64,000 nt of DNA from Clostridia bacterium (lineage in GTDB: Bacteria > Bacillota > Clostridia > Christensenellales > Borkfalkiaceae), in assembly GCA_017399035.1 (NCBI GenBank), contig JAFQEM010000018.1:18389-82388 (forward strand), read 5' to 3'. The notes under the pieces were generated by a model that was given only the letters and a program-made list of their open reading frames with translations, ran no database searches and had not been told where the DNA came from. Positions 5,085 through 25,089 of this stretch are shown piece by piece (position 1 is the first letter of the stretch; each line of letters begins with the position of its first letter). The position numbers were made by a program, and so were the translations under genes.

Positions 5085-5471
5085 TTAATAATCGCCGTCG
5101 TCTATTCTACCATCAAAAGAAGATGCAAAATCTTCTGCCGAAAAATTAGAAGAATGATTACCACAAGGTGGTGGGCAAGGCGGTTTTTTGGGCGGTTTAA
5201 TAGGTCTTGGCGGACGGTTATCCCCATCAAAGCACCTAACGTCAACCAAAATAACGTCGCCACCTATTTTTATAATTTTGCTCTCTTCAATGTAAACTTG
5301 CGTTTTATCAAAACACTTAAAAAGTCCCCTAACCTTTCGCCCAGGTACAATAATCCCCACCAACTTGCCTTCGGGAAATTTAAGTTTAATATCGGTAATA
5401 CGCCCCAAACATCTTCCGTCTGAAATATTTATAACGTCTCTTTTTGTAAGTTCGCTGTAAGAAAGTTCCAT
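5085..5471 (-). CDS. YlmC/YmxH family sporulation protein (PRC-barrel) with a Pro/Cys-rich C-terminal tail
   Basis: From M14 of the track ORF: MELSYSELTKRDVINISDGRCLGRITDIKL...GKLVGIIVPG matches the YlmC/YmxH pattern. The tail is NRPPRPIKPPKKPPCPPPCG. Confidence 0.8.
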   Translation of the reverse strand: MELSYSELTKRDVINISDGRCLGRITDIKLKFPEGKLVGIIVPGRKVRGLFKCFDKTQVYIEESKIIKIGGDVILVDVRCFDGDNRPPRPIKPPKKPPCPPPCGNHSSNFSAEDFASSFDGRIDDGDY

Positions 5472-5504
5472 ACTTTCATCATATGCAACAAACAATCTGA
5501 AATA

Positions 5505-5538
5505 TAACAAAAACCGCGCTTAAAACCATAAGCGCGGT
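5505..5538 (-). terminator. Rho-independent terminator ending the SipW operon
   Basis: Minus strand: accgcgctta-tggttt-taagcgcggt (10-bp stem, 5513-5538) followed by ttttgtt. Confidence 0.8.
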
Positions 5539-5562: not shown

Positions 5563-6549
5563 TTAAGCCTGCGTTATTGAGAATACGGCGGACGAAGAAC
5601 CAACCACTTTTATATAATAAGTGTTAGTATTGTTGCCCGACCTAAACCTTAACGATTGCGACCCTTGACTTCCGGAATCTAAAGATAACAATTTCTCGTT
5701 ACTATCGTATGCGTAAATAGTGGTATTTTCCGTTTCGGTGGTAAGAGTTATATAAATTCTTGAAGTTGTGGTAATTTTATACCACATTTCGCCATAACTT
5801 CCAAAGTCTACGCTAACATCTTGCCCTACAAAAGCATTGATTGCTGTGCCTTTTTGACTGCCGATATATCCAGCAACCCAGTTATCAATGTTAAAACCAG
5901 GGTCAACCGCTACACCCAAGATAGGGTTTTGATAGTACGCCGACGGCGCACTGCCTATTTCGGTAAGAATTGCTTCCCAACGTCCGTTTTCATTAAGTTT
6001 AAGCGTTGTGCGATATATCGGATATATAGTTTGACCTATTGCTATGTTGGGGTTTCTTCTTGCGCCCAAAGGTACGCTTGTGGTAAATAAATAATAAAAA
6101 TCATCAGAACCGTCTGGGAAGTTAAGCACGAACGAAACTTCAGAAGTTGCCTCGTTCAAGTCAAAATAGTTATTTATGGTATCGTCTTCCCAAATATCCA
6201 TACTACCAAGCATATCAGCATCTCGCCACCAAATGCTTTTTCTTTCGGATATTTGCTCAACCAAATAAGAACCTTCCGTGTTAAGCCCAACGCCTACCGT
6301 TTGACCATTTTCCGTTGTAGTTCCGTTCAAGATATTATCAATAAGTTTATGGTGGTCTTGACCAGCCTGATTGTTAGGCAAGCCCTCTGAACCTTTCCAT
6401 TGAAACAAACTTATATCTATATTTAAGTTAAGTTGTTCTGGCGCAGCCCTATAATAAAGCCACGCACCGTGAACGCTAAAATTAGAAAGAAGGAATGCCA
6501 AAAAACACACTAACGCGACTATATAACTAGTTAGTTTTAATTTTTTCAT
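5563..6549 (-). CDS. Secreted protein of unknown function; candidate SipW substrate
   Basis: 328 aa. The N-terminal signal MKKLKLTSYIVALVCFLAFLLSNFSVHGAWLYY ends in a G-AW-Y motif shared with the 211-aa protein. The C-terminal ~75 aa (YKITTTSRIYITL...YYIKVVGSSSAVFSITQA) resemble a PPC-type beta-sandwich pattern; this last point is inference only. Confidence 0.6.
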   Translation of the reverse strand: MKKLKLTSYIVALVCFLAFLLSNFSVHGAWLYYRAAPEQLNLNIDISLFQWKGSEGLPNNQAGQDHHKLIDNILNGTTTENGQTVGVGLNTEGSYLVEQISERKSIWWRDADMLGSMDIWEDDTINNYFDLNEATSEVSFVLNFPDGSDDFYYLFTTSVPLGARRNPNIAIGQTIYPIYRTTLKLNENGRWEAILTEIGSAPSAYYQNPILGVAVDPGFNIDNWVAGYIGSQKGTAINAFVGQDVSVDFGSYGEMWYKITTTSRIYITLTTETENTTIYAYDSNEKLLSLDSGSQGSQSLRFRSGNNTNTYYIKVVGSSSAVFSITQA

Positions 6550-6580: not shown

Positions 6581-9055
6581 TTACCAAATGCTTTCTATTA
6601 TCTTTTTAACGTTTTTAACTTTTCTGTTCGAAGTTATTTTAACTTGCAACGGATAATTTGCGTGCGTTTTTATCAAAGAAACGTCTTTTGCGCCAAGATG
6701 AGCAGACGTAAATTGTGCAGGGTTTGCGCCGATAAATGCGTAAAGCGACTTACCCTTAATTGCAAATTTAACCACAGGTTTAAGCCCTTTCTTGAACGAC
6801 ACGCCTTTTTTGCTATCGTATCTAGTCAACTTTTCATTTTGTTTCAAGAATGAAGTCAACTCTTTATACCACGCCTTGCGCTCGTCGGAAAGTAAAGACA
6901 ATTTTTTCTTGAAAGAATAATTTTTTCTTCCGTAATAAGTGTTGCCAAAGTCTTTTTGTCTTACGCCACCAAACTTATCGTAAACGATATCAGTTACGTA
7001 GCCTACTCTACGTTCGCTTGTAAGTTTAAACTGCGTAGGTACGGTTGCAAACGCTTTAACCAAAGACACGTCTTTTATGCCGTATTTAGGCTCTGAATAT
7101 TCGCTAGGTTCAACCGCCATACAAATTATTATAGTCTTTCCACGAATTGTTAGTTTTGCAAGAGTTTTATTGCCCTTGCGGAAAGTTATTCCACGTTTAC
7201 CTAATATCTCTTTAACGTCTTCAATCGTTTTGAAAGCGGATATAAGTTGGCTATACCAAGCCATACGCTCGCTATCAAGCAATGCAAGTTTTTGTTCAAA
7301 AGTCTTTCTTTCGCCACTAAAATTAAAACCGTTATTTTCAGAAGTTTGAGAAAGGTCTTCAATAAACTTTTCTTTATTTATTTTGAATTTATCTCTATTG
7401 CCACCCAACTTATCAAAAACGACGTCCATAGTATAGCCTAACCTACGTTCACTTGTAAGTTTAAACTGTGTAGGTACGGTTGTATACGCTTTAACCGAAG
7501 ATACGTCTTTTGCGCCGTATTTAGGTTCTAGATATTCGCTAGGTTCAACAGCCATACAAACTATTATCGTCTTTCCACGAATTGTTAATTTAGTAAGCGT
7601 TTTGTTGCCTTTGCGGAAAGTCATACCACGGTTGCCAAGCAATATTTTTACATTTTCAATAGTTTTGAACGCACCCACAAGTTTGTTAAACCAAACCATA
7701 CGTTCATTATCAAGCAAGGCAAGTTTTTGAACAAAGGTTTTTCTTTGACCACCAAAGTCAAAACCATTTTCAGGTTCAACGGCAGTTGTTGCAACTTCTT
7801 GAACGGTAAAGTGCTCTGTGTATAGATATTTATCTCTATTTCCGCCAAGTTTGTCAAAAATAACGTCTTTTACGTAACCAACCCTGCGCTCGCTTGTAAG
7901 TTTAAACTGCGTGGGTACGGTTGCATACGCTTTAACCGAAGACACGTCTTTTGCGCCGTATTTAGGTTCTAGATATTCGCTAGGTTCAACGGCAGTGCAA
8001 ACGACTATGGTTTTACCGCTGATTGAAAGTTTTGCAAGCGTTTTGCTACCCTTTCTAAAAGTCATACCACGCTTACTTTCACTAACCCTTAAGCCGTCTA
8101 TGGTATATAACGCGCTTAAAATTTGATTAAACCAAATTAAACGTTCTTTATTTAATTTTGCAAGTTTTTCTCTAAACGTAAGCCTATTTCCCGTACCAAA
8201 AGCAAGTGTAGCGTCGGTTGAGGTTGCGCCGTCGGGAACGTTTGCCGAACCTTCCGCAACAGGCGTTGCCAACGAAAGAATAAGTTGATAGCGTTCACTG
8301 CGCGCACCGTTTATTTTTTTCTCAATAATAGGCAATGCAATGGTTGCAAACACTATCAAAATAAAACACAATATTCCTGCGGGGCTTTGCATAAAATACA
8401 CAAAACTACCAATGCACGGAACTCTTTCCCCACGATAAATACTTCTCATTTGACTGTATCTAACGGGAAAACGGTCAGGATATTGCACCGCATCACCCTG
8501 CAACAAAAAATGCCTTTCATTAGGGTGCTTTTCGTTAGGTTCTTCTATACCTACGATACGGTGAACGAGCATATACCCCTCAACTTCGTAAACGACTATA
8601 TCGTAAAGTTTAAGGTCTTCTTCTTTAGGAAGTTGATGCAAAACTATTAGGTCGTAAGTGTCAATTTGATTATCTAATTTGTTATCAAACAAATATTTAT
8701 TCTTTTCGTATTTTGAAGACATTGACGGACTGGCAACAACCTTAACTGCGGGAATATTTTTAACCAAACCGTCGCCAAATAAAGAAGTATAGGCAGAAAA
8801 AATAAAAACAACCGATAAAAGGGTACACAAAACTATAGGCACAATCTTTTCAACTATCCCTAAAAAATTACCCTTTTTGCGATTGTTTTGTTCGCTATAT
8901 TCTTTTTTAATATCTTCGTCGTCAAGTCCGCCCCTAATTATGCGTAATTGCGTTTTTACCATAGAAACTATTATGCAAGTAAAAAGCGCCGTAAACGCAG
9001 AAAATACGAACAAGCACAACAAAAGTACGTAAGTTTTAAATTCCATATTAGACAA
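6581..9055 (-). CDS. SipW/archaeal-type (S26B) signal peptidase I fused to four tandem ~145-aa C-terminal repeats
   Basis: 824 aa. Motifs VASPSMS (Ser), LVHRIVG (His) and LQGDAVQYPD align with B. subtilis SipW SGSMEP / THRIV / KGDNNxxxD. TM helices at aa ~8-33, ~72-92 and ~227-245. Then come four repeats of the type F-x-KL-x-L...GMTFRKGxKTLAKLxIxGKT...EPKYGAKDVS. The track start is TTG at 9055; the alternative ATG is at 9046. Confidence 0.8.
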   Translation of the reverse strand: MSNMEFKTYVLLLCLFVFSAFTALFTCIIVSMVKTQLRIIRGGLDDEDIKKEYSEQNNRKKGNFLGIVEKIVPIVLCTLLSVVFIFSAYTSLFGDGLVKNIPAVKVVASPSMSSKYEKNKYLFDNKLDNQIDTYDLIVLHQLPKEEDLKLYDIVVYEVEGYMLVHRIVGIEEPNEKHPNERHFLLQGDAVQYPDRFPVRYSQMRSIYRGERVPCIGSFVYFMQSPAGILCFILIVFATIALPIIEKKINGARSERYQLILSLATPVAEGSANVPDGATSTDATLAFGTGNRLTFREKLAKLNKERLIWFNQILSALYTIDGLRVSESKRGMTFRKGSKTLAKLSISGKTIVVCTAVEPSEYLEPKYGAKDVSSVKAYATVPTQFKLTSERRVGYVKDVIFDKLGGNRDKYLYTEHFTVQEVATTAVEPENGFDFGGQRKTFVQKLALLDNERMVWFNKLVGAFKTIENVKILLGNRGMTFRKGNKTLTKLTIRGKTIIVCMAVEPSEYLEPKYGAKDVSSVKAYTTVPTQFKLTSERRLGYTMDVVFDKLGGNRDKFKINKEKFIEDLSQTSENNGFNFSGERKTFEQKLALLDSERMAWYSQLISAFKTIEDVKEILGKRGITFRKGNKTLAKLTIRGKTIIICMAVEPSEYSEPKYGIKDVSLVKAFATVPTQFKLTSERRVGYVTDIVYDKFGGVRQKDFGNTYYGRKNYSFKKKLSLLSDERKAWYKELTSFLKQNEKLTRYDSKKGVSFKKGLKPVVKFAIKGKSLYAFIGANPAQFTSAHLGAKDVSLIKTHANYPLQVKITSNRKVKNVKKIIESIW
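6584..8209 (-). repeat. In-frame tandem coding repeat, 4 units (period 435-441 nt for the three best-conserved units)
   Basis: The landmark gtaagtttaaactg recurs at 7020, 7455 and 7896, with long near-identical flanks. The 3'-most unit (about 6584-7000) is more diverged. Confidence 0.85.
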
Positions 9056-9125: not shown

Positions 9126-9761
9126 TTATCCTTGTTGAGCAGGTGCTTCAGTGATAGTCAACGTGATAATGTACGTTGCAAGAGCAGCCTCAAAAGCTTT
9201 GTTCTTTTGGTAAGTATCTAAAACAATCGCGTTAGGATTTGATACACCAGTTGAATCGGGCAAGAACGTTAAGCATTCAAAAATTTGAGCACAACTGATT
9301 GACGCTCTAAACGTTCCGTCTGCTTGCTTTACAGTACTACCTTTAGGAATAGTGATGGTATTTTCATCCTCCTTAGCGGTGAAAATTGTAACACCTTCAT
9401 ACGCTTGTTTACCACCTTCAACGGTAACCTCAATAATCATATCGATACCATTATCAGCAATGTCTGCGCTTACACCGTCAGCAGGGTCAAAATAGAATTC
9501 TAAATTGCCAGAAGTTTCAACTTCAGGTACATATGCACCAGCGTCGTCAATATGGAAAGCCAAAGTGTCTTTTGCAGAGTCTACGTGAATAGCACCCTTG
9601 CTATCTGCCCACTCAACCGTGGTCATGTTACCGGTTAAGGTTTTGTCAGCAGTTGCAACACTTGCATCTGTTCCGGGATAAACCCACGCTGCGTAAACGC
9701 CACCGATTGTAACTATCAACGCAAGGCTGATAATTAAACTCATTTTCTTCATAAATTTCAT
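9126..9761 (-). CDS. Secreted protein with a SipW-cognate (TasA/camelysin-like) signal peptide; candidate fibre/matrix subunit
   Basis: 211 aa. N-terminus MKFMKKMSLIISLALIVTIGGVYAAWVYPG compares with TasA ...LALVGGGTWAAFND. RBS aggag lies 9 nt upstream. It is the first gene after the operon promoter. Confidence 0.6.
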   Translation of the reverse strand: MKFMKKMSLIISLALIVTIGGVYAAWVYPGTDASVATADKTLTGNMTTVEWADSKGAIHVDSAKDTLAFHIDDAGAYVPEVETSGNLEFYFDPADGVSADIADNGIDMIIEVTVEGGKQAYEGVTIFTAKEDENTITIPKGSTVKQADGTFRASISCAQIFECLTFLPDSTGVSNPNAIVLDTYQKNKAFEAALATYIITLTITEAPAQQG

Positions 9762-9814: not shown

Positions 9815-9844
9815 ATTATACCCCCCCACCGCACCAAAAGTCAA
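9815..9844 (-). promoter_or_regulatory. Sigma-A type promoter of the SipW operon
   Basis: Minus strand: TTGACT (9844-9839), 18-nt G-rich spacer, TATAAT (9820-9815), about 55 nt upstream of the ATG at 9761. Confidence 0.6.
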
Positions 9845-10025: not shown

Positions 10026-10799
10026 TTATACCCTTATTCTTTCTTTTATGTCTTTTAGGGCGTTTTTTTCAAGCCGTGAAACTTGCGCTTGCGATATACC
10101 CACTTCTTTAGATATTTCAGTTTGAGTTTTGCCCTCAAAATATCTTAAATAAATTATTTTCTTTTCTCTGCCCTCAAGCGTGCCAAGTGCAGTTGTTAGA
10201 GCAACTTTATCAGTCCAGTTTTCGTCGGTGTTTTTTTCGTCGCCTATTTGGTCAACCAACAGTAGTTCGTCGCCAGACTTGTTATAAACGGGGTCGTAAA
10301 GCGAAACGGTGTCTGATATAGCGTCTAGCGCGTAAACCACTTCGGACAGGGCAACGTTCATCTCTTTTGCAATTTTTTCAAGGCTTACCTCTTCATCTCG
10401 CTTTTCAAGTTCACCACGTGTTTTTAACGCTAAATAAGCCGTGTCGCGTATACTTCTTGCAACGCGCATACTGTTACCCTCACGCAGTAACCTTTTTACG
10501 TCGCCTATTATCATAGGCACGGCGTAGGTGGAAAATTTTACGCCAAAAGACAAATCAAAATTATCTATTGCCTTTATAAGTCCTATGCACCCTGCTTGAA
10601 AAACGTCGTCTGAACAAAAGTTTTTCAAATGAAAACGCTTTATAATAGATAACACTAAACGCATATTACCAACTATAAATTCTTCTCTTGCACGCTCGTC
10701 GCCTTGTTTTATGCGTTTTAACAAGGCGGTTGCCTCTTCATCACTTAAGTGTGGCAAAGTTGCGGTGTTTATTCCGCAAATAACAACTTTACTGTTCAT
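10026..10799 (-). CDS. sigG: Forespore RNA polymerase sigma factor SigG
   Basis: 257 aa. KVVICGINTATLPHLSDEE...GNMRLVLSIIKRF...QAGCIGLIKAIDNFDLSFGVKFSTYAVPMIIGDVKRLLRE is near-collinear with B. subtilis SigG (KVEICGVDTSKLPVL...FSTYAVPMIIGEIRRYLRD). Confidence 0.9.
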   Translation of the reverse strand: MNSKVVICGINTATLPHLSDEEATALLKRIKQGDERAREEFIVGNMRLVLSIIKRFHLKNFCSDDVFQAGCIGLIKAIDNFDLSFGVKFSTYAVPMIIGDVKRLLREGNSMRVARSIRDTAYLALKTRGELEKRDEEVSLEKIAKEMNVALSEVVYALDAISDTVSLYDPVYNKSGDELLLVDQIGDEKNTDENWTDKVALTTALGTLEGREKKIIYLRYFEGKTQTEISKEVGISQAQVSRLEKNALKDIKERIRV

Positions 10800-10837
10800 A
10801 TTTCCTCCTTTATGTAAAACGACTCAAGGGGGTTTTT

Positions 10838-10867
10838 TAAGTATGCTCGTTATTTTTGTTTTTATAC
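10838..10867 (-). promoter_or_regulatory. Candidate forespore (sigma-F/sigma-G type) promoter of sigG
   Basis: Minus strand: GTATA (10867-10863), 17 nt, CATACTTA (10845-10838). This resembles GnATA-N17/18-CATnnTA. It lies between the upstream terminator and the sigG RBS aaggagg. Confidence 0.35.
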
Positions 10868-10884
10868 CCTTGCGTTTAACTATA

Positions 10885-10920
10885 TAATAAAAATTTAAGG
10901 CGGTAGAAAATTCTACCGCC
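10885..10920 (-). terminator. Rho-independent terminator ending the AAA+/TGase/MBG operon
   Basis: Minus strand: ggcggtag-aatttt-ctaccgcc (10899-10920) followed by ttaaattttta. Confidence 0.75.
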
Positions 10921-10950
10921 CGTACGACTTTAATTTTTATTAAGTTAAAT

Positions 10951-13900
10951 TTAGTTATAAGTGAGCGTTCCGTTAAATACTTTGATGTTGTAATTTAATA
11001 AGTCTTCGTACAATACGTCTTCGTTTTGCGTATAAACTCTTTCGCCGTCAACTTCTACGTACCAAATGTTACTGGTTGAAGTGCCTTTTTCTAAACAACT
11101 TCCGCTAACGTAAACTTTAACTTCGTCCCCCGCCATAAATTTACCGTAAGTTATGGTATAGGCGTCTTGCAGTTGTTCACTATCTATAGGCTCGTCACTA
11201 GTTATGCTATTTGCAGTTAGATAAACTTCTTGCTTTCTTATTACGTATTGAGCAGAAGTTACTTCAAATACGTAATTTCCAGCCTCTTCATAACCAACTT
11301 CTTGACCGTTATAACGCATTCTCATTGAAGATAAATCTACACCAACTTCATATTCGCCTGCGTTTACAATTTGGTCAACGTATTGCATAGAGTTTTTATC
11401 GTATGCAGTATACGTGTCAAATCCTAAAATTTCATCACCCTCGGCAAGTTGACCGTAACCCTCTCTTATTTTTTCCACAACGAACTTTCTTCCGGTAAAT
11501 GCGTGCGACTGACCATTGTAATAAGCCTCGTAACCAAAAATTACTATTGATATTTTTGTCAAATCTATAGAAAGCGTACCATAATCGTAAGCAATTTCAT
11601 AATAGTTGCCAGTTTTATCATTGCCAAATGCGTCTATTATTTTATAAGATATTTTATTATCAACCCTGCCGTCTTCTCTTGTTAAAGCAAAGGGTAAATT
11701 GCTTGGGTCTTGTGGAACTATTTTGTGCCCATCTACAAGCGCATTACCATAATCTTCATTAACTAATATTTTATCGTTTGTCAACGGCGTGCCGTCATAC
11801 TCTTTATTCATATTGTCTGAATAAAGATATATGCTTAATTGATTTATAGTTAAATCGCCCAAAGCGGTGGTGTTTATTAAAAAGTTTCTACTTACGTTTT
11901 CGTTTTGTCCGTCGGTTATTTGAACACCACTACACTCTACAACGCCCAAATAAGTTCCCGCATCTATACATTGCTCTTTCAACGTGCAATCAACTTTCAT
12001 ATTATAAAGTGGCATAAGTTCAAAAAATTCGCCATCAGCAGTATAATAACTTAAAACTGCGTTTTCTAAACTTGTGGTATCATCATAATCTTTTTCAATA
12101 TCCACTTTAAGCGACATTTCGCAAGGGGTTATTGTAAGCGTTCCGTTATTTAGCGTTTTTATAACGTAATTTTGCGTTTGGTCTTTGCCGTCGGCACTTA
12201 AGTTGGCAACACGCCATCGATACTCGCCGTTTCTTATAGTTATTGCAGTATTTGTGTCATCAACGTTTATTGCGGAACTAAATAAATCCGCATAAAAAAC
12301 GTGTTCATCTAAAAGATTTTCTACGGTTATAGTTTGCGTTTGGTTAAGAGCGAACGGTTGTGAATAATTGTTTTCATATTCAACGGAATATGCCGAATAT
12401 TGCCCACCATCGTAAACCTTGGTAAAATCTGAAATAGTTACCGTAAGTTCTCTTTTGGTAATTTCAAGTTGCACGTTATCAGTTAAAACTATATAGTTGG
12501 AAGAACAGTCGTTTCCATCTTCGTCAAAGATATAGTATTTTATCTTTTCGCCTTTGTATTCACCCACATTTACGCCGTCCGTCCAAACTTTTATTGTATG
12601 ATTATCAACCACTTCAAGAGAACTTTCCGCATAATCGATAGAAGTTGCATAAAACTCTTGTCCGTTATACTGTTTATTTTCGTCAATAACTAAACTAATT
12701 TCTCTCAACCCAACGGTTATTTCACCATATTCGTAAATAATTTTGTAGTTATCTTTTACCGTTTGATTTACGCTATTTAACACGTCTTTCACGGTAACCT
12801 CATTAGGTCCAGAACCTTGCAAAAGTTCCGTCCAGTCGTCGTTAAGTTCTATCTTATGACCGTCAACAAGCCCTTCTTGGTCTATAACACCGTCTTTAAA
12901 CTTAAAGGTATGAACTTGCCCGTCGTAAATGATACTTGCTTTTGGCGTTTTTATCGTAAGCGGTCTTTTTTCAATAGTTAAATCGCCAGCATTGATAGTA
13001 ATGTTATAATTATCCTTGTTTCCACTTTCAATATCCCACTCAAGAATTTTTACGCTTTCTAAATATGTGCCTGCATTTATGCAACCTGTGGGCAGTTCGC
13101 ATTTTGCAACTCGGATTTTTTGATTTCCGTAAAGATTTTCGGTTAAAACGCCCTCGTCTTCTTCCTTTAATACGGATACAGAAACATCCTTAGCGTGGAT
13201 TTCCGCGCTATCATCATAAGTTTTAACTGCGTTTGCAAAAACAAAAACCTGCCTTGGTGTTACTGTAAGCGTGCCTGCCGTTACTGTGTAGTTAAAGTTT
13301 TCTAACGCGCTCTCATTATTTTGGTTTTTAATATCGTTTATGATTATGGTGTTTTCTGCACTGCCAACGTCGGTTATACTACCCGTAACGCTCACGTCTA
13401 AAGTATGGTCGCTAGGCATATTGTAGTAAACGTATTCGTTGAGAGTAAATGGTTCTGCATTATAGATTGCGCTACCGTCATAAGACTCTATAGTTATATC
13501 ACGCTTGTTTATGATTAAAGCAGAGTCCTCTTCAATGATAACTTGATAGTTTGTGGTAACTTCTTTTGTAGGCTCAAAAATATGTAAGTCAACACTTTCT
13601 TTACCGTAAGTTTTTGCCTTTACGTCATTTGAACAAACAGTCATATAATGGCTGTCAACTAATTCCCCACTAATAAATTCAAAATTATCTTCCATTAAAA
13701 GGGCATAGCCGTCATAATTTTTTTCATTATTAAACTTTAGTCTAATAGGGCGGGGCGTTACGGTCAACTTACAATCTTCAAAATTATCCGTTATCTTGTA
13801 ATTGTTTGTAACGACAAGGTCGCCACGAGAAGAACTTTTTATGCTATAACTTGGCACGTTATCAACCGAATTAACGTCGGTTATAGAACTAGAAAATTGA

Positions 13901-15492
13901 ATATCTAATCTATCGCCAAACCCAAGTTCGCTATAATAAACCTTGTTATCCGCCACAAGTTGCTCTAAAGTTTCGCCAACGAACGTGAGTTCAGTGCCGT
14001 CGTAAACCTTTTCGTCATCAAAAACGGTAATTGTGAGTGGTTTAGGCGTTATTTTTAAGTTGCCAAAATTTTCAGTTATAAGGTAGTTTGATATAACGCT
14101 ATTTCCGTATGCATTTGTAATATAGTAAATAGGCGTGTTTTGAATTTCGTCAACGTCTATTATTGACTCGTCAAACACAATTTCTATATTATCGTCGTCG
14201 GCAAGTTGCCCAAGTTCAATTTTTCCTTGCGATATAAGTTCTTCTTTCGATAAACCAACAAACGTGAGTTCAGTGCCGTCATAAACTTTTTCTTGGTCTT
14301 TGACGGTAATTGCGAACGGTTTAGGCGTTATTTTCAAGTTGCCAAAATCTTCGGTTAAAACGTAATTTGATATAACACTTTCGCCTTGAGAATTTAAAAT
14401 ATCGTAGTCAGGCGTGTTTTGCTCGGTAACCGCATTTATTATAGATTTTGTAAACTCAACGTCTATCCTGTCGCCCTCTGCAACGTTGCCAAGCATAAGT
14501 TTTCCGCTTTCAATTAGCGTGTCAATATTTTCGCCTACAAAAGTGAGCGGTGTTCCATCATACTCTTTACTTACTTCGTTTACCTTTATTATAAACGGGC
14601 GTGGCAATATTTCTAACGTACCAAACTGTTTGTTTATATTATAGTTCGCAGAAACGTCTTGTCCGTCTGCATTTTTAATAGCGAAAACAGGGGTATTTTC
14701 CACAAAACCAACGTTTGTTATTGACTTATTAAACTCAATTTCTATTTTATCGTCAAAAGCAAGTTCACCAAGCGCAATCTTGCCCTGTTCGATAAGTTGT
14801 TCTTTTGAAAGATTTGTAAAAGTTAATTCTTTTCCGTCGTAAGTTTTATTTTCGTCAGCGACCTTAAAAGTAAATCTTTTTTGCGCAACGTATACGTTTT
14901 TTTCTGACGCGTTAATATTATAACAATGCGTTACGTCGTTACCTAATTTGTCTTGTATAACAATGCTATCTTTTAGCGCAGATATTTTTTGAGTTCCAAC
15001 CGTCTTTTGTAAATTATAATCTATTTGACTAATTTTGTCGCCGTTTTTAAGGTCAGCAACGTAAGTGGGCATATCGCCGTAAGTAAGGTTATTTTCTTTA
15101 ATTTGAACGTCAAGACTTGCAGGTTCTATCACAAGCGGAACGGCACGACTATAATTTTTTATACCGAACGTACGCTTTGAATATGCGCGCACACTATAGT
15201 CCCCCGTCTGCGTAGGCAGACCGTCAATCCACTCGTTACCGTCTGCTAACTTATGTTCATAACCCACTTTGCTAAACAACGCCCCTGCGCTACACTCAAC
15301 GCGTTGACCATAAACTATTTGCGGTGTAGAAAGGTTTATATCGTCAGTAAAAATTCCACGCACGGATAAAAATGCAACGTACAACGCCAAAATAGCCCCG
15401 ACAACTGAAAGTATCAGAACTTTATGCTTTTTTATCTTATCGACTATTTTAGCGATTTTTTCAATTTTTGTTTGATAATTTTTGTATAACAT
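10951..15492 (-). CDS. Giant signal-anchored surface protein made of ~13 YDG/MBG-like beta repeats
   Basis: 1513 aa. One N-terminal TM (VLILSVVGAILALYVAFLSV). Repeated units have the form K-x-YDG-x-x-L-T ... G-D/H ... NY-x-I ... G-x-L-x-I-x-P-R/K-P. No LPXTG motif, no catalytic motif. Confidence 0.75.
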   Translation of the reverse strand: MLYKNYQTKIEKIAKIVDKIKKHKVLILSVVGAILALYVAFLSVRGIFTDDINLSTPQIVYGQRVECSAGALFSKVGYEHKLADGNEWIDGLPTQTGDYSVRAYSKRTFGIKNYSRAVPLVIEPASLDVQIKENNLTYGDMPTYVADLKNGDKISQIDYNLQKTVGTQKISALKDSIVIQDKLGNDVTHCYNINASEKNVYVAQKRFTFKVADENKTYDGKELTFTNLSKEQLIEQGKIALGELAFDDKIEIEFNKSITNVGFVENTPVFAIKNADGQDVSANYNINKQFGTLEILPRPFIIKVNEVSKEYDGTPLTFVGENIDTLIESGKLMLGNVAEGDRIDVEFTKSIINAVTEQNTPDYDILNSQGESVISNYVLTEDFGNLKITPKPFAITVKDQEKVYDGTELTFVGLSKEELISQGKIELGQLADDDNIEIVFDESIIDVDEIQNTPIYYITNAYGNSVISNYLITENFGNLKITPKPLTITVFDDEKVYDGTELTFVGETLEQLVADNKVYYSELGFGDRLDIQFSSSITDVNSVDNVPSYSIKSSSRGDLVVTNNYKITDNFEDCKLTVTPRPIRLKFNNEKNYDGYALLMEDNFEFISGELVDSHYMTVCSNDVKAKTYGKESVDLHIFEPTKEVTTNYQVIIEEDSALIINKRDITIESYDGSAIYNAEPFTLNEYVYYNMPSDHTLDVSVTGSITDVGSAENTIIINDIKNQNNESALENFNYTVTAGTLTVTPRQVFVFANAVKTYDDSAEIHAKDVSVSVLKEEDEGVLTENLYGNQKIRVAKCELPTGCINAGTYLESVKILEWDIESGNKDNYNITINAGDLTIEKRPLTIKTPKASIIYDGQVHTFKFKDGVIDQEGLVDGHKIELNDDWTELLQGSGPNEVTVKDVLNSVNQTVKDNYKIIYEYGEITVGLREISLVIDENKQYNGQEFYATSIDYAESSLEVVDNHTIKVWTDGVNVGEYKGEKIKYYIFDEDGNDCSSNYIVLTDNVQLEITKRELTVTISDFTKVYDGGQYSAYSVEYENNYSQPFALNQTQTITVENLLDEHVFYADLFSSAINVDDTNTAITIRNGEYRWRVANLSADGKDQTQNYVIKTLNNGTLTITPCEMSLKVDIEKDYDDTTSLENAVLSYYTADGEFFELMPLYNMKVDCTLKEQCIDAGTYLGVVECSGVQITDGQNENVSRNFLINTTALGDLTINQLSIYLYSDNMNKEYDGTPLTNDKILVNEDYGNALVDGHKIVPQDPSNLPFALTREDGRVDNKISYKIIDAFGNDKTGNYYEIAYDYGTLSIDLTKISIVIFGYEAYYNGQSHAFTGRKFVVEKIREGYGQLAEGDEILGFDTYTAYDKNSMQYVDQIVNAGEYEVGVDLSSMRMRYNGQEVGYEEAGNYVFEVTSAQYVIRKQEVYLTANSITSDEPIDSEQLQDAYTITYGKFMAGDEVKVYVSGSCLEKGTSTSNIWYVEVDGERVYTQNEDVLYEDLLNYNIKVFNGTLTYN
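13755..14880 (-). repeat. Four highly similar ~279-nt (93-aa) tandem coding repeats inside the 1513-aa gene
   Basis: For example, 13977-14100 and 14257-14380 are near-identical (caacRaacgtgagttcagtgccgtcRtaaac...ggtttaggcgttatttt). The protein units begin FTFKV / FIIKV / FAITV / LTITV. Confidence 0.8.
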
Positions 15493-15514
15493 TTTTTACC
15501 CGTTTATTTAACGT

Positions 15515-18898: not shown

Positions 18899-18917
18899 CT
18901 TTCTACCTTTTACATTG

Positions 18918-19286: not shown

Positions 19287-19305
19287 ATCTTTTGCCTTCT
19301 TAACC

Positions 19306-20703
19306 TTAAATAGTTCTTTCTAAATGTCTTAAATAATCTTTGGTTAACGTCATCTTTTCTTGTCCGAAAGTCTCTTCTATGTGCGCACATAATCCGTCTA
19401 TCGCATTTCTTACGTATACGGGGTTTTGCATCTCTAACTTTCTCATTATCTTCTTTGCTATGATGTCGTCTACCGCCTCTTCTTCCGTTCCACCGCACGC
19501 TATGTACGCTGATACGTATTCTTTTAACTGTTTCATTATACGGTTACCAAACGTTATATGAAAGTTCTCTATCATATATCTGTCTAACTCTTTTATCTGC
19601 CTTAACTTCCTGCCCGTTATTCCGTATTCTCTCTTCGCTTTTGCTATTAGTTTCTTAAACCTATCGTACGTTATTCTTACGCCTTCCGTATCTTCTGCGT
19701 AAAATACGTGCGTCTTTTTATCTAGATTCATTATCATTGCTCTATCGTATACCTTATCCGATATCGCAAACGTTGAGTCGTCGTTATTTGCAGTCCCTAT
19801 AAACCACATATTTTCGGGTAGTTTTAGTTGTCCTTTCTTTAATAACTTCGGGTCGTTATCCCACTTGTCCGTTACTACGTCTATATATCTTCCCTCTGGG
19901 TTTGGTAACTCTAATAACGACAAGAATTCTGCAAAGTAATATTCTACCCTTGCTATATTCATTTCGTCTAGTACCGTTATGTATATCTCTTTACTATAGT
20001 TTGCCTCGTACATCTTTTGCAACAAGGTTGTTTCGTTAAACTTTTTTGTAAATTCGTTATAATACCCCACTAGGTCGGTTCTCTCTTTCCACATAGGTTG
20101 TATAGGTACTATTACTGAATGATTACTTAAAAATTCACCAAACGCATACGCTAACGAAGTTTTACCCGTACCACTCATACCTTGCATTATGATTATATGT
20201 GATACTGCTAAACTTGCTACGAATCTTCTTATCTCTCTTATATCGTAATATAACTTCAATCTGCTTGCGGCAAAGTTTCTAAACCTTTCGCAAAACTCTT
20301 TCATTGTTATTTCTTCATCAAATCCGCCCTGCGGTTTATTGCGCATTACTCTATCCGTTTCGGTTAACATATAGAAACGTGAGGGGTGCTCTTCACTATC
20401 TTTTTCTTTTTCCTCTGCGCTAGCACCCACCGCCGTCGTGCTTGCGATTGAAGAAGTGGCGGTTACAGGTTTACCGTTGTTTACCTTTTCAACGTAATCA
20501 CGAAGTTTATCTAACTCTTCGGTTTCTTCCGCACGCCTACCGTGGTCAAAAACCACCGCAACCACTAGGATAACTACGGCAAGAAGAAGAACTACAACGT
20601 AAATTAAAATTGCTATTTGGCTAGAGAGCGCAGTCCAAATTGTATCCGCAACGGGATTGTCGCTTACAGCCATTAAATTATTTAACGCATCAAACTTATA
20701 CAT
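19306..20703 (-). CDS. Membrane-anchored McrB-like (AAA_5 type) AAA+ NTPase
   Basis: 465 aa. TM at aa ~29-52. Walker A QGMSGTGKTS, Walker B ITVLDEMNIARVEYYFAEFLSLLE, then WFIGTANNDDSTFAISDKVYDRAMI. This is the McrB/dynein-related AAA pattern (DEINRAN...FGEL..LLE; IGTMNtaD...RRF). Confidence 0.75.
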   Translation of the reverse strand: MYKFDALNNLMAVSDNPVADTIWTALSSQIAILIYVVVLLLAVVILVVAVVFDHGRRAEETEELDKLRDYVEKVNNGKPVTATSSIASTTAVGASAEEKEKDSEEHPSRFYMLTETDRVMRNKPQGGFDEEITMKEFCERFRNFAASRLKLYYDIREIRRFVASLAVSHIIIMQGMSGTGKTSLAYAFGEFLSNHSVIVPIQPMWKERTDLVGYYNEFTKKFNETTLLQKMYEANYSKEIYITVLDEMNIARVEYYFAEFLSLLELPNPEGRYIDVVTDKWDNDPKLLKKGQLKLPENMWFIGTANNDDSTFAISDKVYDRAMIMNLDKKTHVFYAEDTEGVRITYDRFKKLIAKAKREYGITGRKLRQIKELDRYMIENFHITFGNRIMKQLKEYVSAYIACGGTEEEAVDDIIAKKIMRKLEMQNPVYVRNAIDGLCAHIEETFGQEKMTLTKDYLRHLERTI

Positions 20704-20722
20704 TTAATCTCTCCACCCGTAA

Positions 20723-23110: not shown

Positions 23111-23175
23111 TTGAGTTTCTCCTTTTCCGCTATGAAAGCAGATACCTTTGCGTATTTATTTGCTGAAAAACCGTT

Positions 23176-23246
23176 ATAAAAAAACAGAAACGCCGTTTGC
23201 AACGGGCATAACGGCGAATGGAAAATATCCGAATAAAAATCGGATA
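23176..23246 (-). promoter_or_regulatory. Two tandem terminator-like hairpins in the 5' leader of the five-gene operon
   Basis: Minus strand: tatccga-tttttat-tcggata + ttttcc (23226-23246), then cgccgtt-atgcccgttgca-aacggcg + tttctgttttttt (23176-23216). Both lie between the promoter and the ATG at 23110. Confidence 0.55.
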
Positions 23247-23352: not shown

Positions 23353-23403
23353 GTGTTTTAACACGCTAACGCCATATAGCCTTATTAGAGTTTCAAAAAC
23401 CTT

Positions 23404-23453: not shown

Positions 23454-24161
23454 TTAAATCATTTTTGCAAACTCTTTTTTCAATCTTACTATAATTTTCT
23501 TTTCCAAACGAGATATGTAACTTTGTGAAATTCCTAGCATATCGGCAACTTCTCTTTGCGTTTTTTCTTCTGAACCTTTAAGCCCGTATCTCAATTCCAT
23601 AATCTCACGCTCTCTATCGTTAAGTTTAGTGAGCGCAACCCCCAAAAGTTCACTCTCTACGCCGTTTTCTATTTTTTTATAAACCACGTCGCCGTCAGTA
23701 CCCATAACGTCTGAAAGCATAAGTTCGTTGCCTTCCCAATCGGTGTTGAGCGGTTCGTCAAAAGACACTTCACTTTTAATTTTAACCGTGCGCCGTAAAT
23801 GCATCAAAATTTCGTTCTCTATACAGCGCGACGCATAGGTTGCAAGTTTTATATTTTTATCTGCATTGAAAGAATTTACCGCCTTAATTAGCCCTATAGT
23901 ACCCACCGAAACCAAGTCGTCTAAGTCTACGCCAGTGTTTTCAAAACGCCTTGCGATATAAACTACCAAACGCAAATTATGTTCTATAAGTTGGTCGCGT
24001 ATTTGCTTTTCGCCCTCACCCAACTTTTTTAGCATATCCGCCTCTTCTTCCCCACTATAAGGCAAGGGCAAAATTTCACCGCCACCTATAAATCTTAAAA
24101 GATTTTGACTTAAAGAAAATTTTTCAAGAAACTTTTTCAACTTGCTTAATACGTTCATCAC
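23454..24161 (-). CDS. sigE: Mother-cell RNA polymerase sigma factor SigE (pro-sigma-E)
   Basis: 235 aa. Pro-sequence, then [16 protein letters not shown]...[64 protein letters not shown], near-collinear with B. subtilis SigE. It sits immediately downstream of spoIIGA. Confidence 0.92.
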
Positions 24162-24948
24162 TGTTCTCCTTATAAAACGCTGGGTGTAAAATTAAATCGT
24201 AGCCGTCGCCTACGGTATCGGCAACGCACAGCGTTACTTTATTAAATATATTCGCTTGTTCTTCAATATATATCTTTATTTGGTCAAGTTCTACTGCTAT
24301 ATTTTCAACACTTCCCGACACGGTTTTTACCATAATTTTTTTAAGTTTTATTTTATGCAAGTTTTCACCCACAAAATCAACAAAAAACTTTTTTTCGCAC
24401 AAAACCACAGGGTTTTCGCCGTCGTAAAGCCCGTTTCCCGTATCCAAAAAACCGCGAACGGTTGCAGTTTTTTTGCGCAAGGTTATATCCACCTTAAAAA
24501 TAAACGCCTCTATATCTTTACGCCTATAGATATACTTAATTGTAGAATTTACACACGCTATTAAAACCCAAACAGGCAACACCATAATTGCAACTGAAAA
24601 TTGCGCCGAATAATCAAGACCAAATATATTATAAATGCCAACTATTGCTCCACCCACGGCAAAGGTTAAAAGGAAAAATATTAAGGTGTTTAGTAGGTAC
24701 GCGCGTTTTGACGGATAAACGTTAGCAACAAGCGTCAACAAAAAGCCCGACAATATTCTAACCATAAGCGAAATAAACTTAACGTGAGCAATAAGCGGAT
24801 AAACAAGCGCAATGACCGCACCTAAAAAAGAGCAAAATAAAAGCCTACCCTTACTATATCCGTTTCCGGTAAGCGCAAAGGTGGCTTTAAGTAATAAATA
24901 ATCGATTATAACGTTGTCAATTAAAACGTATTCAATATAAACGGTCAT
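24124..24948 (-). CDS. spoIIGA: Sigma-E processing peptidase SpoIIGA
   Basis: From M11 of the track ORF: [21 protein letters not shown], five TM helices, then [11 protein letters not shown] (aspartic protease DTGN motif). Adjacent to sigE. Confidence 0.88.
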
Positions 24949-25089
24949 CTTTGCCCCCGCGCCTTTAGATTGTAGCATAAGGGTAAAAGCCGTTTAAGTA
25001 AGTTTTTTATGTATTTTAATTTATTTTGTAGAAAAGATAAACCGCCCGAAAAATTTCAAGCGGTTTGTTCTTAAATTTGTATTTTTAAT

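What the first reader, a model, noticed from the sequence alone, without database searches (positions are those of the whole stretch)
6584..8209. Signal peptidase fused to four tandem, lysine/arginine-rich ~145-aa repeats predicted to face the cytoplasm
After the third TM helix (aa ~227-245), the SipW-like enzyme continues for ~560 aa as four repeats. Each repeat has a helix (FxxKLAxLxxERxxWFNxL), a basic hairpin (RGMTFRKGxKTLAKLxIxGKTIxVC) and EPxYGAKDVSxVKAYxTVPTQFKLTSERR. SipW as I recall it is about 190 aa with only a short C-terminal tail. With the catalytic domain outside the cell, the topology places all four repeats in the cytoplasm, which is unusual for a signal peptidase. Three repeats are still near-identical at the DNA level (period 435-441 nt), so they were amplified or homogenised recently. 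The basic composition suggests binding to nucleic acid, to an anionic polymer, or to pre-protein substrates. I do not recognise the repeat as a named domain. The KGxKxFAxL...L pattern is loosely reminiscent of YjbR/DUF1801-type folds, but that is speculation.
Basis: partly seen in the sequence, partly recalled or inferred. Interest (0 to 1): 0.7.

Follow-up and report, generated by a model that had tools for sequence, protein, structure and literature searches.

The report
Signal peptidase with cytoplasmic basic repeats
A real, conserved gene in an uncultured gut Clostridia bacterium joins a SipW/SEC11-type signal peptidase to four cytoplasmic copies of an uncatalogued, strongly basic domain that also sits on the inner ends of other envelope proteins, so it probably tethers them to a negatively charged partner such as DNA.

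Summary
The gene is real: 6581..9055 on the minus strand, 824 aa (821 aa from the ATG at 9046, MBQ3493103.1, "hypothetical protein"). The same 821-aa length is seen on 15 independently assembled contigs.

The N-terminal 250 aa are a divergent S26B (SipW/SEC11-type) signal peptidase with three membrane helices and invariant Ser111, His165 and Asp188. The enzyme lies between two secreted proteins that share a signal peptide ending GGVYA(A/T)W.Y. This three-gene cassette recurs in most of 80 related genomes.

The tail holds four copies of a roughly 115-aa domain that no searched library contains (Pfam, NCBIfam, PHROGs, PDB sequences). An exhaustive profile search still finds at least 2,555 protein clusters with it.

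The domain always lies after the last membrane helix. It carries a mean net charge of +11 and is separated by acidic linkers. It is fused to at least two further kinds of SipW-type peptidase, to a DUF5305 protein, to the tails of giant surface proteins, to bare membrane anchors and to McrC-N proteins. It is optional: 61 of the 80 closest peptidase relatives lack it, and copy number runs from 0 to 4.

The claim of near-identical DNA repeats is wrong (71-81% identity). The best reading is a multivalent cytoplasmic binder of a polyanion, probably nucleic acid. That step is inferred, not shown.

The parts
6581..9055 (-). Whole gene: SipW/SEC11-type signal peptidase plus four C-terminal repeats. 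It is 824 aa from the TTG at 9055, while the database protein MBQ3493103.1 starts at the ATG at 9046 (821 aa). The stop codon is 6581-6583.
8951..9040 (-). Membrane helix 1 (aa 6-35). Canonical two-helix SipW lacks this extra N-terminal helix.
   Evidence: hydropathy; AlphaFold helix 2-41
8873..8950 (-). Cytoplasmic loop (aa 36-61) with the conserved motif G43..D46.(I49)..E52-Y; G43, D46 and E52 are invariant in 26 relatives
8774..8872 (-). Membrane helix 2 (aa 62-94)
8414..8773 (-). Extracytoplasmic S26B catalytic domain (aa 95-214). Ser111 is at 8723-8725, His165 at 8561-8563, Asp188 at 8492-8494 and Asp194 at 8474-8476.
   Evidence: These residues are invariant in alignment A4. They align with the SEC11A/C Ser, His-Arg and Gly-Asp motifs. 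The top Foldseek match is 7p2q SEC11C, E 1.8e-4.
8309..8413 (-). Membrane helix 3 (aa 215-249), returning the chain to the cytoplasm; it starts with the conserved FMQSPAG.LC motif
8192..8308 (-). Linker with no conserved sequence between helix 3 and the first repeat (aa 250-288)
   Evidence: no conservation; pLDDT falls to 60 (mean of residues 261-270) at the C-terminal end of the 270-residue model
7841..8191 (-). Repeat 1 (aa 289-405)
7400..7750 (-). Repeat 2 (aa 436-552). This copy was modelled: pLDDT 92.1, helices plus a six-stranded sheet.
6965..7315 (-). Repeat 3 (aa 581-697)
6584..6928 (-). Repeat 4 (aa 710-824). It is the divergent terminal copy and is orthologous to the last repeat of relatives.
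9126..9761 (-). Upstream gene of 211 aa, a secreted protein with signal peptide ...TIGGVYA-AWVY. It is a probable cognate substrate and lies immediately upstream of the peptidase in 66 of 80 related loci.
5563..6549 (-). Downstream gene of 328 aa, a secreted protein with signal peptide ...SVHG-AWLY. It is a probable second substrate and lies immediately downstream in 43 of 80 related loci.
9815..9844 (-). Sigma-70-like promoter match (TTGACT, 18 nt, TATAAT; 11 of 12) upstream of the three-gene cassette
   Evidence: consensus match only
5513..5538 (-). Terminator-like hairpin (10-bp stem, 6 G-C pairs, T tract) just after the 328-aa gene
   Evidence: consensus match only

Best explanation
The gene encodes a dedicated ER/archaeal-type (S26B, SipW/SEC11-like) signal peptidase. 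It forms a three-gene operon with two secreted proteins. The enzyme has three membrane helices, with its N-terminus outside and its C-terminus inside. Its Ser111/His165/Asp188 catalytic domain sits on the outer face of the membrane. There it most likely removes the signal peptides of the two flanking proteins after the conserved ...GGVYA motif, as SipW does for TapA and TasA.

Behind the third helix, the cytoplasmic tail carries four copies of a roughly 115-aa, strongly basic domain of the YdhG/YjbR/DUF5655 'double-wing' fold. This domain is an optional, copy-number-variable module. Gut Clostridia have attached it to the cytoplasmic ends of several envelope proteins.

I propose that each copy binds a cytoplasmic polyanion, most likely nucleic acid. 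An array of copies on flexible linkers would then act as a multivalent tether. It would hold or cluster the peptidase, and the other proteins carrying the module, at particular places on the inner face of the membrane.

- Shown computationally: the gene, its conservation, the peptidase fold and catalytic residues, the operon, and the fold, charge and architectures of the domain.
- Inferred: the topology, the substrates, the ligand and the tethering role.
For: **Gene and fusion are real**
- The ORF is uninterrupted.
- Three variants of the same 821-aa length (at least 90% identical) occur on 15 contigs from three sources.
- 33 of the top 150 representative clusters have the same three-helix peptidase plus 1-3 repeats.
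- 18 of 80 species-level genomes have 1-4 repeats.

**Peptidase**
- NCBIfam gives weak SipW and archaeal signal peptidase I hits.
- The family profile hits SEC11A at E 5e-4, aligned through the Ser, His-Arg and Gly-Asp motifs.
- Ser111, His165 and Asp188 are invariant in 26 relatives.
- The AlphaFold model (pLDDT 84) best matches SEC11C, then SipA, SpsB and LexA.

**Operon and substrates**
- The flanking genes are conserved in 66 and 43 of 80 loci.
- Both flanking proteins carry signal peptides ending GGVYA(A/T)W.Y.
- A promoter-like site and a strong terminator-like hairpin bracket the three genes.

**Domain**
- 2,555 representative proteins match at E<=1e-3 and 879 at E<=1e-10.
- The model has pLDDT 92.1.
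- The top PDB fold matches are YdhG-like 9t2w, YjbR 2fki and YdhG 2oc6, with probability 0.93-0.99 and TM-score 0.51-0.55.
- The BFVD matches are D9ZNF6 at E 2e-5 and a DUF5655 protein at E 9e-4, with T4-type MotA further down the list.

**Cytoplasmic location**
- No clear membrane helix follows the first repeat in any of the 150 proteins; two (P0046, P0055) have one marginal hydrophobic window there.
- Lys/Arg clusters follow the preceding helix in the giant surface proteins and N-out anchors I inspected.
- The domain also occurs in proteins without membrane helices that carry the cytoplasmic McrC-N domain.
- The C-terminal tail of B. subtilis SipW is known to be cytoplasmic (PMC8767453).

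**Polyanion ligand**
- Net charge averages +11.1 (SD 4.0) over 330 copies, and 99% are positive.
- 15 alignment columns are conserved as Lys or Arg. In the strands they alternate with hydrophobic columns, which suggests they line the exposed face of the sheet.
- Linkers average -11 in charge.
- YjbR and MotA C-terminal domains of this fold are described as double-wing DNA binders (PMC7641849).
Against: - No binding has been measured. The ligand rests only on charge, fold precedent and fusion partners.
- Sequence profiles do not link the domain to YjbR (hhalign probability 0.3%) or to any Pfam family. The superfamily assignment is therefore structural only, and the PDB Foldseek E-values are weak (0.016-0.05).
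- Some members of this fold bind iron (frataxin, YdhG/Fra), not DNA.
- The McrC-N proteins that carry the domain sit in SipW-type clusters, and the one I read in full (a repeat-free relative) has no obvious nuclease. They give little independent support for DNA binding.
- One relative (P0140) interleaves the repeats with Big_3-like Ig domains, which are usually extracellular.
- The module is missing from 61 of 80 close relatives, including the three closest. It is therefore not needed for the core function of the peptidase.
- Topology was inferred from hydropathy, AlphaFold and the positive-inside rule. No dedicated topology predictor or experiment was used.
Confidence: 0.5

Rival explanations
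1. The repeats are a protein-protein docking module. They would bring components of a SipW/TasA-like envelope assembly system onto a common cytoplasmic platform, either by binding each other or by binding a partner such as the membrane-anchored McrB-like AAA_5 NTPase.
For: - The same domain is attached to at least three kinds of SipW-type peptidase.
- It is attached to DUF5305, which has been proposed as an accessory subunit of signal peptidase I (bioRxiv 10.64898/2026.01.04.697558).
- It is attached to McrC-N/DUF2357 proteins. In metagenome loci these sit between two SipW-like genes, next to an AAA_5 NTPase that is 41-46% identical to window gene 19306..20703.
Against: - The module is sporadic: 0-4 copies among close relatives of this peptidase, and only 2 of the 17 retrieved loci encode a DUF2357 protein that has it.
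- Copy number varies from 1 to 7.
- A conserved charge of +11 over 15 Lys/Arg columns looks more like a polyanion surface than a specific protein interface.
Confidence: 0.2
2. The basic domains bind anionic phospholipids on the inner leaflet of the membrane. This would cluster or localise the peptidase in particular lipid regions such as poles, septa or the forespore membrane.
For: The domain is strongly basic. In 101 of the 144 full-length proteins among the top 150 it is tethered to a membrane helix.
Against: - 43 of the 150 proteins have no membrane helix.
- The long, strongly acidic linkers (median 67 aa, mean charge -11) would be repelled by an anionic membrane.
- No amphipathic helix or lipid-binding precedent is known to me for this fold.
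Confidence: 0.12
3. The tail is a signalling or regulatory output. It would work as a membrane-tethered transcription regulator or a second-messenger receptor that couples secretion of the flanking proteins to gene expression. This would be an enlarged version of the 20-residue cytoplasmic tail of B. subtilis SipW, which activates matrix genes.
For: - The C-terminal 20 residues of B. subtilis SipW are cytoplasmic and activate biofilm matrix genes on surfaces, independently of peptidase activity (Terra et al. 2012, as summarised in PMC8767453).
- The double-wing fold is used by the transcription factor MotA.
- EAL-domain genes sit in related SipW clusters.
Against: - The same module sits on giant surface proteins and on bare membrane anchors. 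That fits a generic tether better than a specific regulator.
- There is no similarity to the B. subtilis tail.
- Tandem arrays of 2-7 copies are unusual for sequence-specific regulators.
Confidence: 0.13
4. The repeats are extracellular cell-wall-binding modules, or the fusion is an assembly or frameshift artefact.
For: Basic repeat modules that bind teichoic acids are common on Gram-positive surface proteins. P0140 mixes the repeats with Big_3-like Ig domains.
Against: - An odd number of helices places the tail opposite the catalytic domain.
- The domain is fused to cytoplasmic McrC-N proteins that have no signal peptide.
- Lys/Arg stop-transfer clusters precede it in the surface proteins and anchors I inspected.
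- The same 821-aa length is seen on 15 contigs, and there are many independent fusions.
Confidence: 0.03

Closest known systems
Bacillus subtilis SipW (ER-type signal peptidase I, MEROPS S26B) in the tapA-sipW-tasA operon
   Same: - It has the Ser/His/Asp catalytic motifs and the S26 fold.
- The catalytic domain sits between membrane helices, and the C-terminal end is cytoplasmic.
- The gene lies between two secreted proteins that share a special signal peptide.
- The cytoplasmic tail of B. subtilis SipW has a second, non-proteolytic role (PMC8767453).
   Different: - The window protein scores far below the curated cut-offs (36 against 190 bits, and 31 against 52 bits).
- It has an extra N-terminal helix and a conserved cytoplasmic loop.
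- Its tail is about 575 aa with four folded domains, instead of about 20 residues.
- The flanking proteins have no detectable TasA or camelysin sequence signature.
Eukaryotic SEC11A/SEC11C, the catalytic subunits of the signal peptidase complex (PDB 7p2p, 7p2q)
   Same: It is the best sequence-profile match (E 5e-4) and the best structural match (E 1.8e-4). The catalytic Ser, His and Asp motifs align.
   Different: SEC11 has one membrane helix and works with accessory subunits (SPC12, SPC22/23, SPC25). It has no cytoplasmic repeat array.
YdhG/DUF1801, MmcQ/YjbR (PF04237) and DUF5655 domains; the 'double-wing' C-terminal domain of phage T4 MotA
   Same: The repeat model has the same two-layer alpha+beta fold over its full length (TM-score 0.5-0.63). 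YjbR and MotA are regarded as DNA binders (PMC7641849).
   Different: - No sequence-profile similarity was found.
- The repeat is far more basic.
- It occurs in tandem arrays with acidic linkers, and mostly on membrane proteins.
- YdhG/Fra and frataxin are acidic iron-handling proteins.
DUF5305/TafG-type accessory proteins and variant dedicated signal peptidases of TasA-superfamily filament loci (Tafi, AbpX)
   Same: - Those loci also pair an archaeal-type signal peptidase I with secreted subunits.
- Their peptidases show unusual architectures, with four or ten helices or fusions to DUF5305 (PMC11821415; bioRxiv 10.64898/2026.01.04.697558).
- A DUF5305 protein (P0079) carries the same basic repeats.
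   Different: The passages of those papers that I read do not mention this repeat domain. The window cassette has no DUF5305 gene. Its flanking proteins could not be placed in the TasA superfamily with the tools I had left.

Membership tests
Signal peptidase I, ER/archaeal type (S26B; NCBIfam TIGR02228 sigpep_I_arch, NF046067 SipW) | Score above the curated HMM cut-off | tested here: not met
   TIGR02228 scores 30.8 bits against a cut-off of 51.85, and NF046067 scores 36.3 against 190. Pfam Peptidase_S26 reaches only E 5.3. Two other repeat-bearing peptidases, P0021 and P0032, do pass TIGR02228 with 73.5 and 58.3 bits.
Signal peptidase I, ER/archaeal type (S26B) | Catalytic Ser (S-x-S-M box), His (H-R box) and Asp (G-D box) in order | tested here: met
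   Ser111, His165 and Asp188 are invariant in 26 relatives. They align with the corresponding SEC11A/C motifs.
Signal peptidase I, ER/archaeal type (S26B) | S26 beta-barrel-like catalytic fold | tested here: met
   The AlphaFold model has pLDDT 84. The top Foldseek match is SEC11C 7p2q (E 1.8e-4, probability 1.00), followed by SipA, SpsB and LexA.
Signal peptidase I, ER/archaeal type (S26B) | Catalytic domain outside the membrane, flanked by membrane helices, with the C-terminus in the cytoplasm | tested here: inconclusive
   Hydropathy and AlphaFold give three helices that flank the domain. The orientation follows from the need for an external active site and from charge distribution. No dedicated topology predictor or experiment was available.
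Signal peptidase I, ER/archaeal type (S26B) | Cleaves signal peptides | not testable with these tools
   This needs an enzyme assay with the two flanking pre-proteins.
SipW-TasA-type cassette (dedicated peptidase plus cognate secreted subunits) | Peptidase gene flanked by secreted proteins that share a distinctive signal peptide | tested here: met
   Homologues of the 211-aa and 328-aa proteins flank the peptidase in 66 and 43 of 80 loci. Both families end their signal peptide in GGVYA(A/T)W.Y or a near variant.
SipW-TasA-type cassette | Flanking proteins belong to the TasA superfamily (jelly-roll fold, donor-strand polymerisation) | tested here: inconclusive
   There was no Pfam hit for any of 19 members. 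The profile against PDB sequences gives only a weak cohesin-like match at E 0.015.
YdhG/DUF1801 - YjbR - DUF5655 (CyaY-like, double-wing) superfamily | Two-layer alpha+beta fold with an N-terminal helix, an antiparallel sheet and a C-terminal helix | tested here: met
   The repeat model has pLDDT 92.1. PDB matches are 9t2w, 2fki and 2oc6 (probability 0.93-0.99, TM-score 0.51-0.55), with 2a1v and 2i8d weaker (probability 0.75 and 0.30). BFVD matches are D9ZNF6 at E 2e-5 (TM-score 0.63) and a DUF5655 protein at E 9e-4.
YdhG/DUF1801 - YjbR - DUF5655 superfamily | Sequence-profile match to one of the member families | tested here: not met
   No Pfam family matched at E<=10 for two repeats. The profile of 62 copies finds nothing in PDB sequences. 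hhalign against E. coli YjbR gives probability 0.3%. DUF1801 and DUF5655 profiles could not be compared directly.
YdhG/DUF1801 - YjbR - DUF5655 superfamily | Binds DNA (as proposed for YjbR and shown for the MotA C-terminal domain) | not testable with these tools
   Only indirect evidence exists: mean charge +11 and 15 conserved Lys/Arg columns.

The most novel reading that the evidence does not exclude
The repeat defines a large, uncatalogued family of cytoplasmic nucleic-acid-binding modules. Gut Clostridia would use it to tie envelope machinery physically to the chromosome or to mRNA. The machinery includes dedicated signal peptidases, their DUF5305 partners, giant adhesin-like proteins and a McrBC-derived NTPase module. 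Secretion and fibre-assembly sites would then be positioned by, or report back to, the nucleoid. This would also give a mechanistic model for the unexplained gene-regulatory role of the SipW tail in Bacillus.
Probability: 0.2. Interest if true: 0.8.

Novelty: new variant of a known kind. Interest (0 to 1): 0.6.

Why it matters
**Link to an open question.** Dedicated SipW-type peptidases drive assembly of TasA-like matrix and pilus fibres in bacteria and archaea. B. subtilis SipW also has an unexplained second, regulatory function that resides in its short cytoplasmic tail. Here the same position carries a large folded array. The same module recurs on the peptidase's proposed accessory subunit and on other envelope proteins. 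That points to a general, unrecognised cytoplasmic function coupled to surface-protein processing in abundant but uncultured gut Clostridia.

**An uncatalogued domain.** The domain has at least 2,555 clusters at 50% identity and no Pfam or NCBIfam entry in the copies searched. It deserves a family definition.

**Testable.** The hypothesis can be tested directly with one purified repeat.

Tried and rejected
**Searches that found nothing useful**
- The word-indexed protein search found nothing with repeat 2. With the 62-copy profile it found only two short fragments. It therefore gave no names or precomputed domains. The exhaustive profile search was what revealed the family.
- Pfam, NCBIfam and PHROGs found nothing for the repeat. 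PDB sequence searches with a single copy or with the profile also found nothing.
- tblastn of a consensus-like copy found nothing in plasmids or phages.
- hhalign against E. coli YjbR gave no signal.
- The flanking 211-aa family has no Pfam match and only a weak cohesin-like PDB match. I could not show that it is TasA-like.

**Readings I rejected**
- I first read the DUF2357 (McrC-N) fusions as evidence for DNA targeting by a restriction system. I dropped this reading. Their relatives sit between SipW-like genes, next to a membrane-anchored NTPase, and the one I read in full (a repeat-free relative) shows a long charged stretch that looks like coiled coil but no nuclease.
- Recent repeat amplification or homogenisation.
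- Assembly artefact.
- Extracellular location.


Full report
**1. The observation**

The finding's span (6584-8209) is the C-terminal two thirds of a single ORF on the minus strand, 6581..9055, 824 aa.
- Hydropathy gives three membrane-helix-sized segments at aa 6-35, 62-94 and 215-249. The region after the third has a net charge of +46.
- Four repeats begin at aa 289, 436, 581 and 710.
- A profile of the family scores each copy at E 1e-35 to 1e-38. It finds no further copy anywhere in the window in six frames.
- The DNA periods of 435 and 441 nt are right.

The claim that three copies are near-identical at the DNA level is not right.
- Tandem Repeats Finder gives 78% matches and the repeat finder gives 73-80%.
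- Codon-aligned comparison gives 71-81% identity, with only 50-68% identity at third positions.
- R1-R3 are each other's closest relatives (67-77% protein identity, against 49-55% to the non-terminal repeats of the nearest homologue). They arose within this lineage, but not recently.
- R4 (30-37% to the others) is the orthologue of the terminal repeat of relatives: 61% to P0001 and 51% to P0014.

**2. The gene is real and the fusion is conserved**

From the ATG at 9046 the product is exactly MBQ3493103.1, annotated "hypothetical protein [Clostridia bacterium]". Its 90%-identity cluster holds three 821-aa variants, seen on 4, 8 and 3 contigs from NCBI, JGI/IMG and ENA. An assembly collapse or a frameshift fusion is therefore excluded, and the count of four repeats is reproducible.

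**3. The N-terminal part**

NCBIfam gives weak hits to SipW (4e-9) and to archaeal-type signal peptidase I (2e-7). Both are below the curated cut-offs.
- An alignment of 26 relatives has invariant Ser111 (in S-P-S-M), His165-Arg166, and Gly187-Asp188 and Asp194.
- The profile of that alignment matches human SEC11A at E 5e-4, aligned through the same motifs.
- An AlphaFold model built on that alignment (pLDDT 84) shows three long helices and a beta domain.
- The best structural match of that model is SEC11C (7p2q, E 1.8e-4). Streptococcus SipA, SpsB and LexA follow.

I conclude that this is a divergent S26B peptidase. Compared with the two-helix SipW it has an extra N-terminal helix. It also has a conserved cytoplasmic loop motif, G43..D46..I49..E52-Y. 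I cannot explain that motif.

**4. Context**

A scan of one genome per species found 273 genomes with a relative of the N-terminal part. All of the 80 best loci returned are gut metagenome-assembled genomes of Clostridia (Faecousia, Candidatus Scatosoma, Christensenellaceae, Acutalibacteraceae, Oscillospiraceae and others).
- In the 80 best loci, homologues of the window's 211-aa gene lie directly upstream in 66. Homologues of the 328-aa gene lie directly downstream in 43.
- Both families have a signal peptide ending ...TIGGVYA(A/T)W.Y or a near variant. That fits cleavage after V-Y-A by a dedicated enzyme.
- This layout recalls the tapA-sipW-tasA arrangement, in which SipW is highly substrate-specific (PMC8767453).
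- In the window, a promoter-like site (11 of 12 matches, 9844-9815) and a strong terminator-like hairpin (5538-5513) bracket the three genes.
- I could not show that the flanking proteins are TasA-like.

**5. The repeat is a large, uncatalogued domain family**

Pfam, NCBIfam, PHROGs and PDB sequences have nothing for it. An exhaustive profile search of 1.84 billion representative proteins found 2,555 at E<=1e-3, 879 at E<=1e-10 and 110 at E<=1e-30.

In the top 150, copies per protein range from 1 to 7, most often 2 or 3. The architectures are:

| Architecture | Proteins | Notes |
|---|---|---|
| Signal-peptidase fusions | 37 | 33 of the window's three-helix type; P0021 and P0032 are two-helix SipW-type enzymes that pass TIGR02228 |
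| No membrane helix | 43 | 23 share a central region holding DUF2357, the N-terminal domain of McrC (PMC11090510) |
| Single-pass anchor | 36 | Short neutral outside stub, then Lys/Arg cluster, acidic linker and repeats (17 inspected) |
| Giant proteins, about 1,100-5,400 aa | 13 | Most have an N-terminal hydrophobic segment resembling a signal peptide, a late membrane segment, a Lys-rich stop-transfer, an acidic linker and repeats |
| Other multi-helix proteins | 15 | One (P0079) passes the DUF5305 threshold; four others share its N-terminal layout |
| Fragments | 6 | |

DUF5305 has been proposed as an accessory subunit of signal peptidase I in TasA-superfamily loci (PMC11821415; bioRxiv 10.64898/2026.01.04.697558).

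Apart from one marginal hydrophobic window each in P0046 and P0055, no protein has a membrane helix after its first repeat. Some giant proteins have two late hydrophobic stretches. In those, the second is about 45 residues long and has Lys clusters on both sides, so it reads as a hairpin that returns to the cytoplasm.

**6. Topology**

Four independent lines put the domain in the cytoplasm.
- In the peptidase fusions, the chain after the helix that follows the external catalytic domain must be inside. This is established for the B. subtilis SipW tail (PMC8767453).
- The region after the second helix of DUF5305 is described as cytoplasmic.
- McrC-N proteins are cytoplasmic and have no signal peptide.
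- The positive-inside rule holds in the single-pass anchors and giant proteins I inspected.

One caveat remains. P0140 interleaves the repeats with Big_3-like Ig domains, which are usually extracellular. Its flanking charges still favour an N-out, C-in orientation.

**7. Fold**

AlphaFold2 on repeat 2 with 62 diverse copies gave pLDDT 92.1 and pTM 0.81. The order of elements is two helices, four strands, a short helix, two strands and a C-terminal helix.
- Against the PDB, the four best matches are all of one structural kind: Listeria YdhG-like protein 9t2w (chains A and B), E. coli YjbR 2fki and B. subtilis YdhG 2oc6. Their probabilities are 0.93-0.99, TM-scores 0.51-0.55 and E-values 0.016-0.055. 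DR2400/DUF419 (2a1v) and 2i8d follow further down.
- Against predicted viral structures, the matches are stronger: D9ZNF6 at E 2e-5 (TM-score 0.63) and a DUF5655 protein at E 9e-4. T4-type Alc and MotA appear lower in the list.
- Sequence profiles do not detect the relationship.

Homology remains unproven.

**8. Clues to function**

Over 330 copies the domain's net charge averages +11.1 (SD 4.0). 99% of copies are positive and 96% are at least +5.
- Fifteen alignment columns are conserved as Lys or Arg: 4, 9, 18, 35, 37, 46, 49, 54, 58, 60, 77, 87, 97, 102 and 105.
- In the strands these columns alternate with conserved hydrophobic columns (34, 53, 57, 62, 66, 68). I infer that they line the exposed face of the sheet, which is the surface used by double-wing DNA binders.
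- Linkers between copies have a median length of 67 aa and a mean charge of -11.3. The window's own linkers are short and only mildly acidic.

The module is optional.
- Of the 80 closest relatives of the peptidase, 61 end shortly after the third helix. This includes the three closest (60-71% identity).
- Three have one copy, seven have two, seven have three and one has four (L038). No separate repeat gene lies nearby.
- Likewise, in the 17 loci retrieved with a DUF2357 query, only two encode a protein that carries the repeats.

**9. Interpretation**

The catalytic half most likely processes the two flanking pre-proteins. The tail is best explained as a multivalent cytoplasmic binder of a polyanion. 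I favour nucleic acid on three grounds: the fold precedent, the size of the conserved basic surface, and the presence of the domain in soluble proteins. The array would hold or cluster the enzyme, and other carriers of the module, at the inner face of the membrane.

The alternatives are:
- a protein-docking module shared by parts of a SipW-type assembly system;
- binding of anionic lipid;
- a regulatory output comparable to the B. subtilis SipW tail.

None of these is excluded. The ligand and the tethering role are inference only.

**10. Side observation**

Relatives of the DUF2357 region lie in a conserved cluster. Its gene order is:
1. an EAL-domain protein;
2. a small membrane protein;
3. 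a SipW-like peptidase;
4. a membrane-anchored AAA_5 (McrB-like) NTPase;
5. a DUF2357 protein with a long charged stretch that looks like coiled coil and no visible nuclease;
6. a second SipW-like peptidase.

The NTPase is 41-46% identical to window gene 19306..20703. That gene sits about 10 kb upstream of the cassette, in a same-strand run between a spoIIGA/sigE-like pair and a sigG-like gene. A McrBC-derived motor thus seems to have been recruited to SipW-type loci. This weakens the use of the McrC fusions as evidence for DNA targeting.

**11. Novelty and score**

The peptidase is a new variant of a known kind. The repeat is a new sequence family within a known fold, and it is absent from the libraries I could search. 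The papers on SipW and on TasA-superfamily loci that I consulted do not mention it in the passages I read.

I score interest at 0.6. The architecture is recurrent, and it is unexpected for a signal peptidase. It also bears on the open question of the second function of SipW. The mechanism, however, is still conjecture.

Noticed in passing
window 5563-6549 and 9126-9761 (minus strand); loci L001-L080: The two genes flanking the peptidase encode secreted proteins with no Pfam family. Their signal peptides end in a shared motif, GGVYA(A/T)W.Y. The three-gene cassette is conserved in most of 80 related gut Clostridia genomes. The proteins may be subunits of a TasA-like fibre, but I could not show this.
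   Followed up: partly
window 8873-8950 (aa 36-61 of the peptidase): The cytoplasmic loop between helices 1 and 2 carries a motif that is invariant in 26 relatives (G43, D46, E52, with I49 nearly invariant). AlphaFold predicts it as a short helix (aa 46-58). Canonical SipW lacks both the first helix and this loop. Its role is unknown.
   Followed up: no
window 19306-20703 (minus strand); loci L081-L095: A membrane-anchored AAA_5 (McrB-like) NTPase in the window is 41-46% identical to NTPases in metagenome loci. There the NTPase lies next to a DUF2357 (McrC-N) protein and between two SipW-like peptidase genes, with an EAL-domain gene upstream; the one DUF2357 protein read in full (L085) has a long charged stretch and no visible nuclease. 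This looks like a McrBC-derived module recruited to SipW-type surface-protein loci, not a restriction system.
   Followed up: partly
window 10026-24978 (minus strand): A spoIIGA-like gene (24124..24978) and a sigE-like gene (23454..24161) are separated from a sigG-like gene (10026..10799) by about 12.6 kb. This stretch encodes envelope proteins: a 795-aa polytopic membrane protein, the AAA_5 NTPase, an 1127-aa transglutaminase-domain protein and a 1513-aa YDG-domain protein. The peptidase cassette follows directly, and a YlmC/YmxH-type PRC-barrel gene (5085..5510) comes after it. Expression linked to sporulation is possible.
   Followed up: no
protein P0140: One relative has a membrane helix followed by Big_3-like Ig domains interleaved with the basic repeats, with no further membrane helix. 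Big_3 domains are usually extracellular. Either these Ig domains are cytoplasmic here, or this protein is an exception to the cytoplasmic rule.
   Followed up: partly
loci L001, L002, L003: The three closest relatives of the peptidase part (60-71% identity; L001 and L002 are Faecousia sp. genomes, L003 an unclassified Clostridia bacterium) end right after the third helix and have no repeats. The tail has therefore been gained or lost between closely related lineages.
   Followed up: yes
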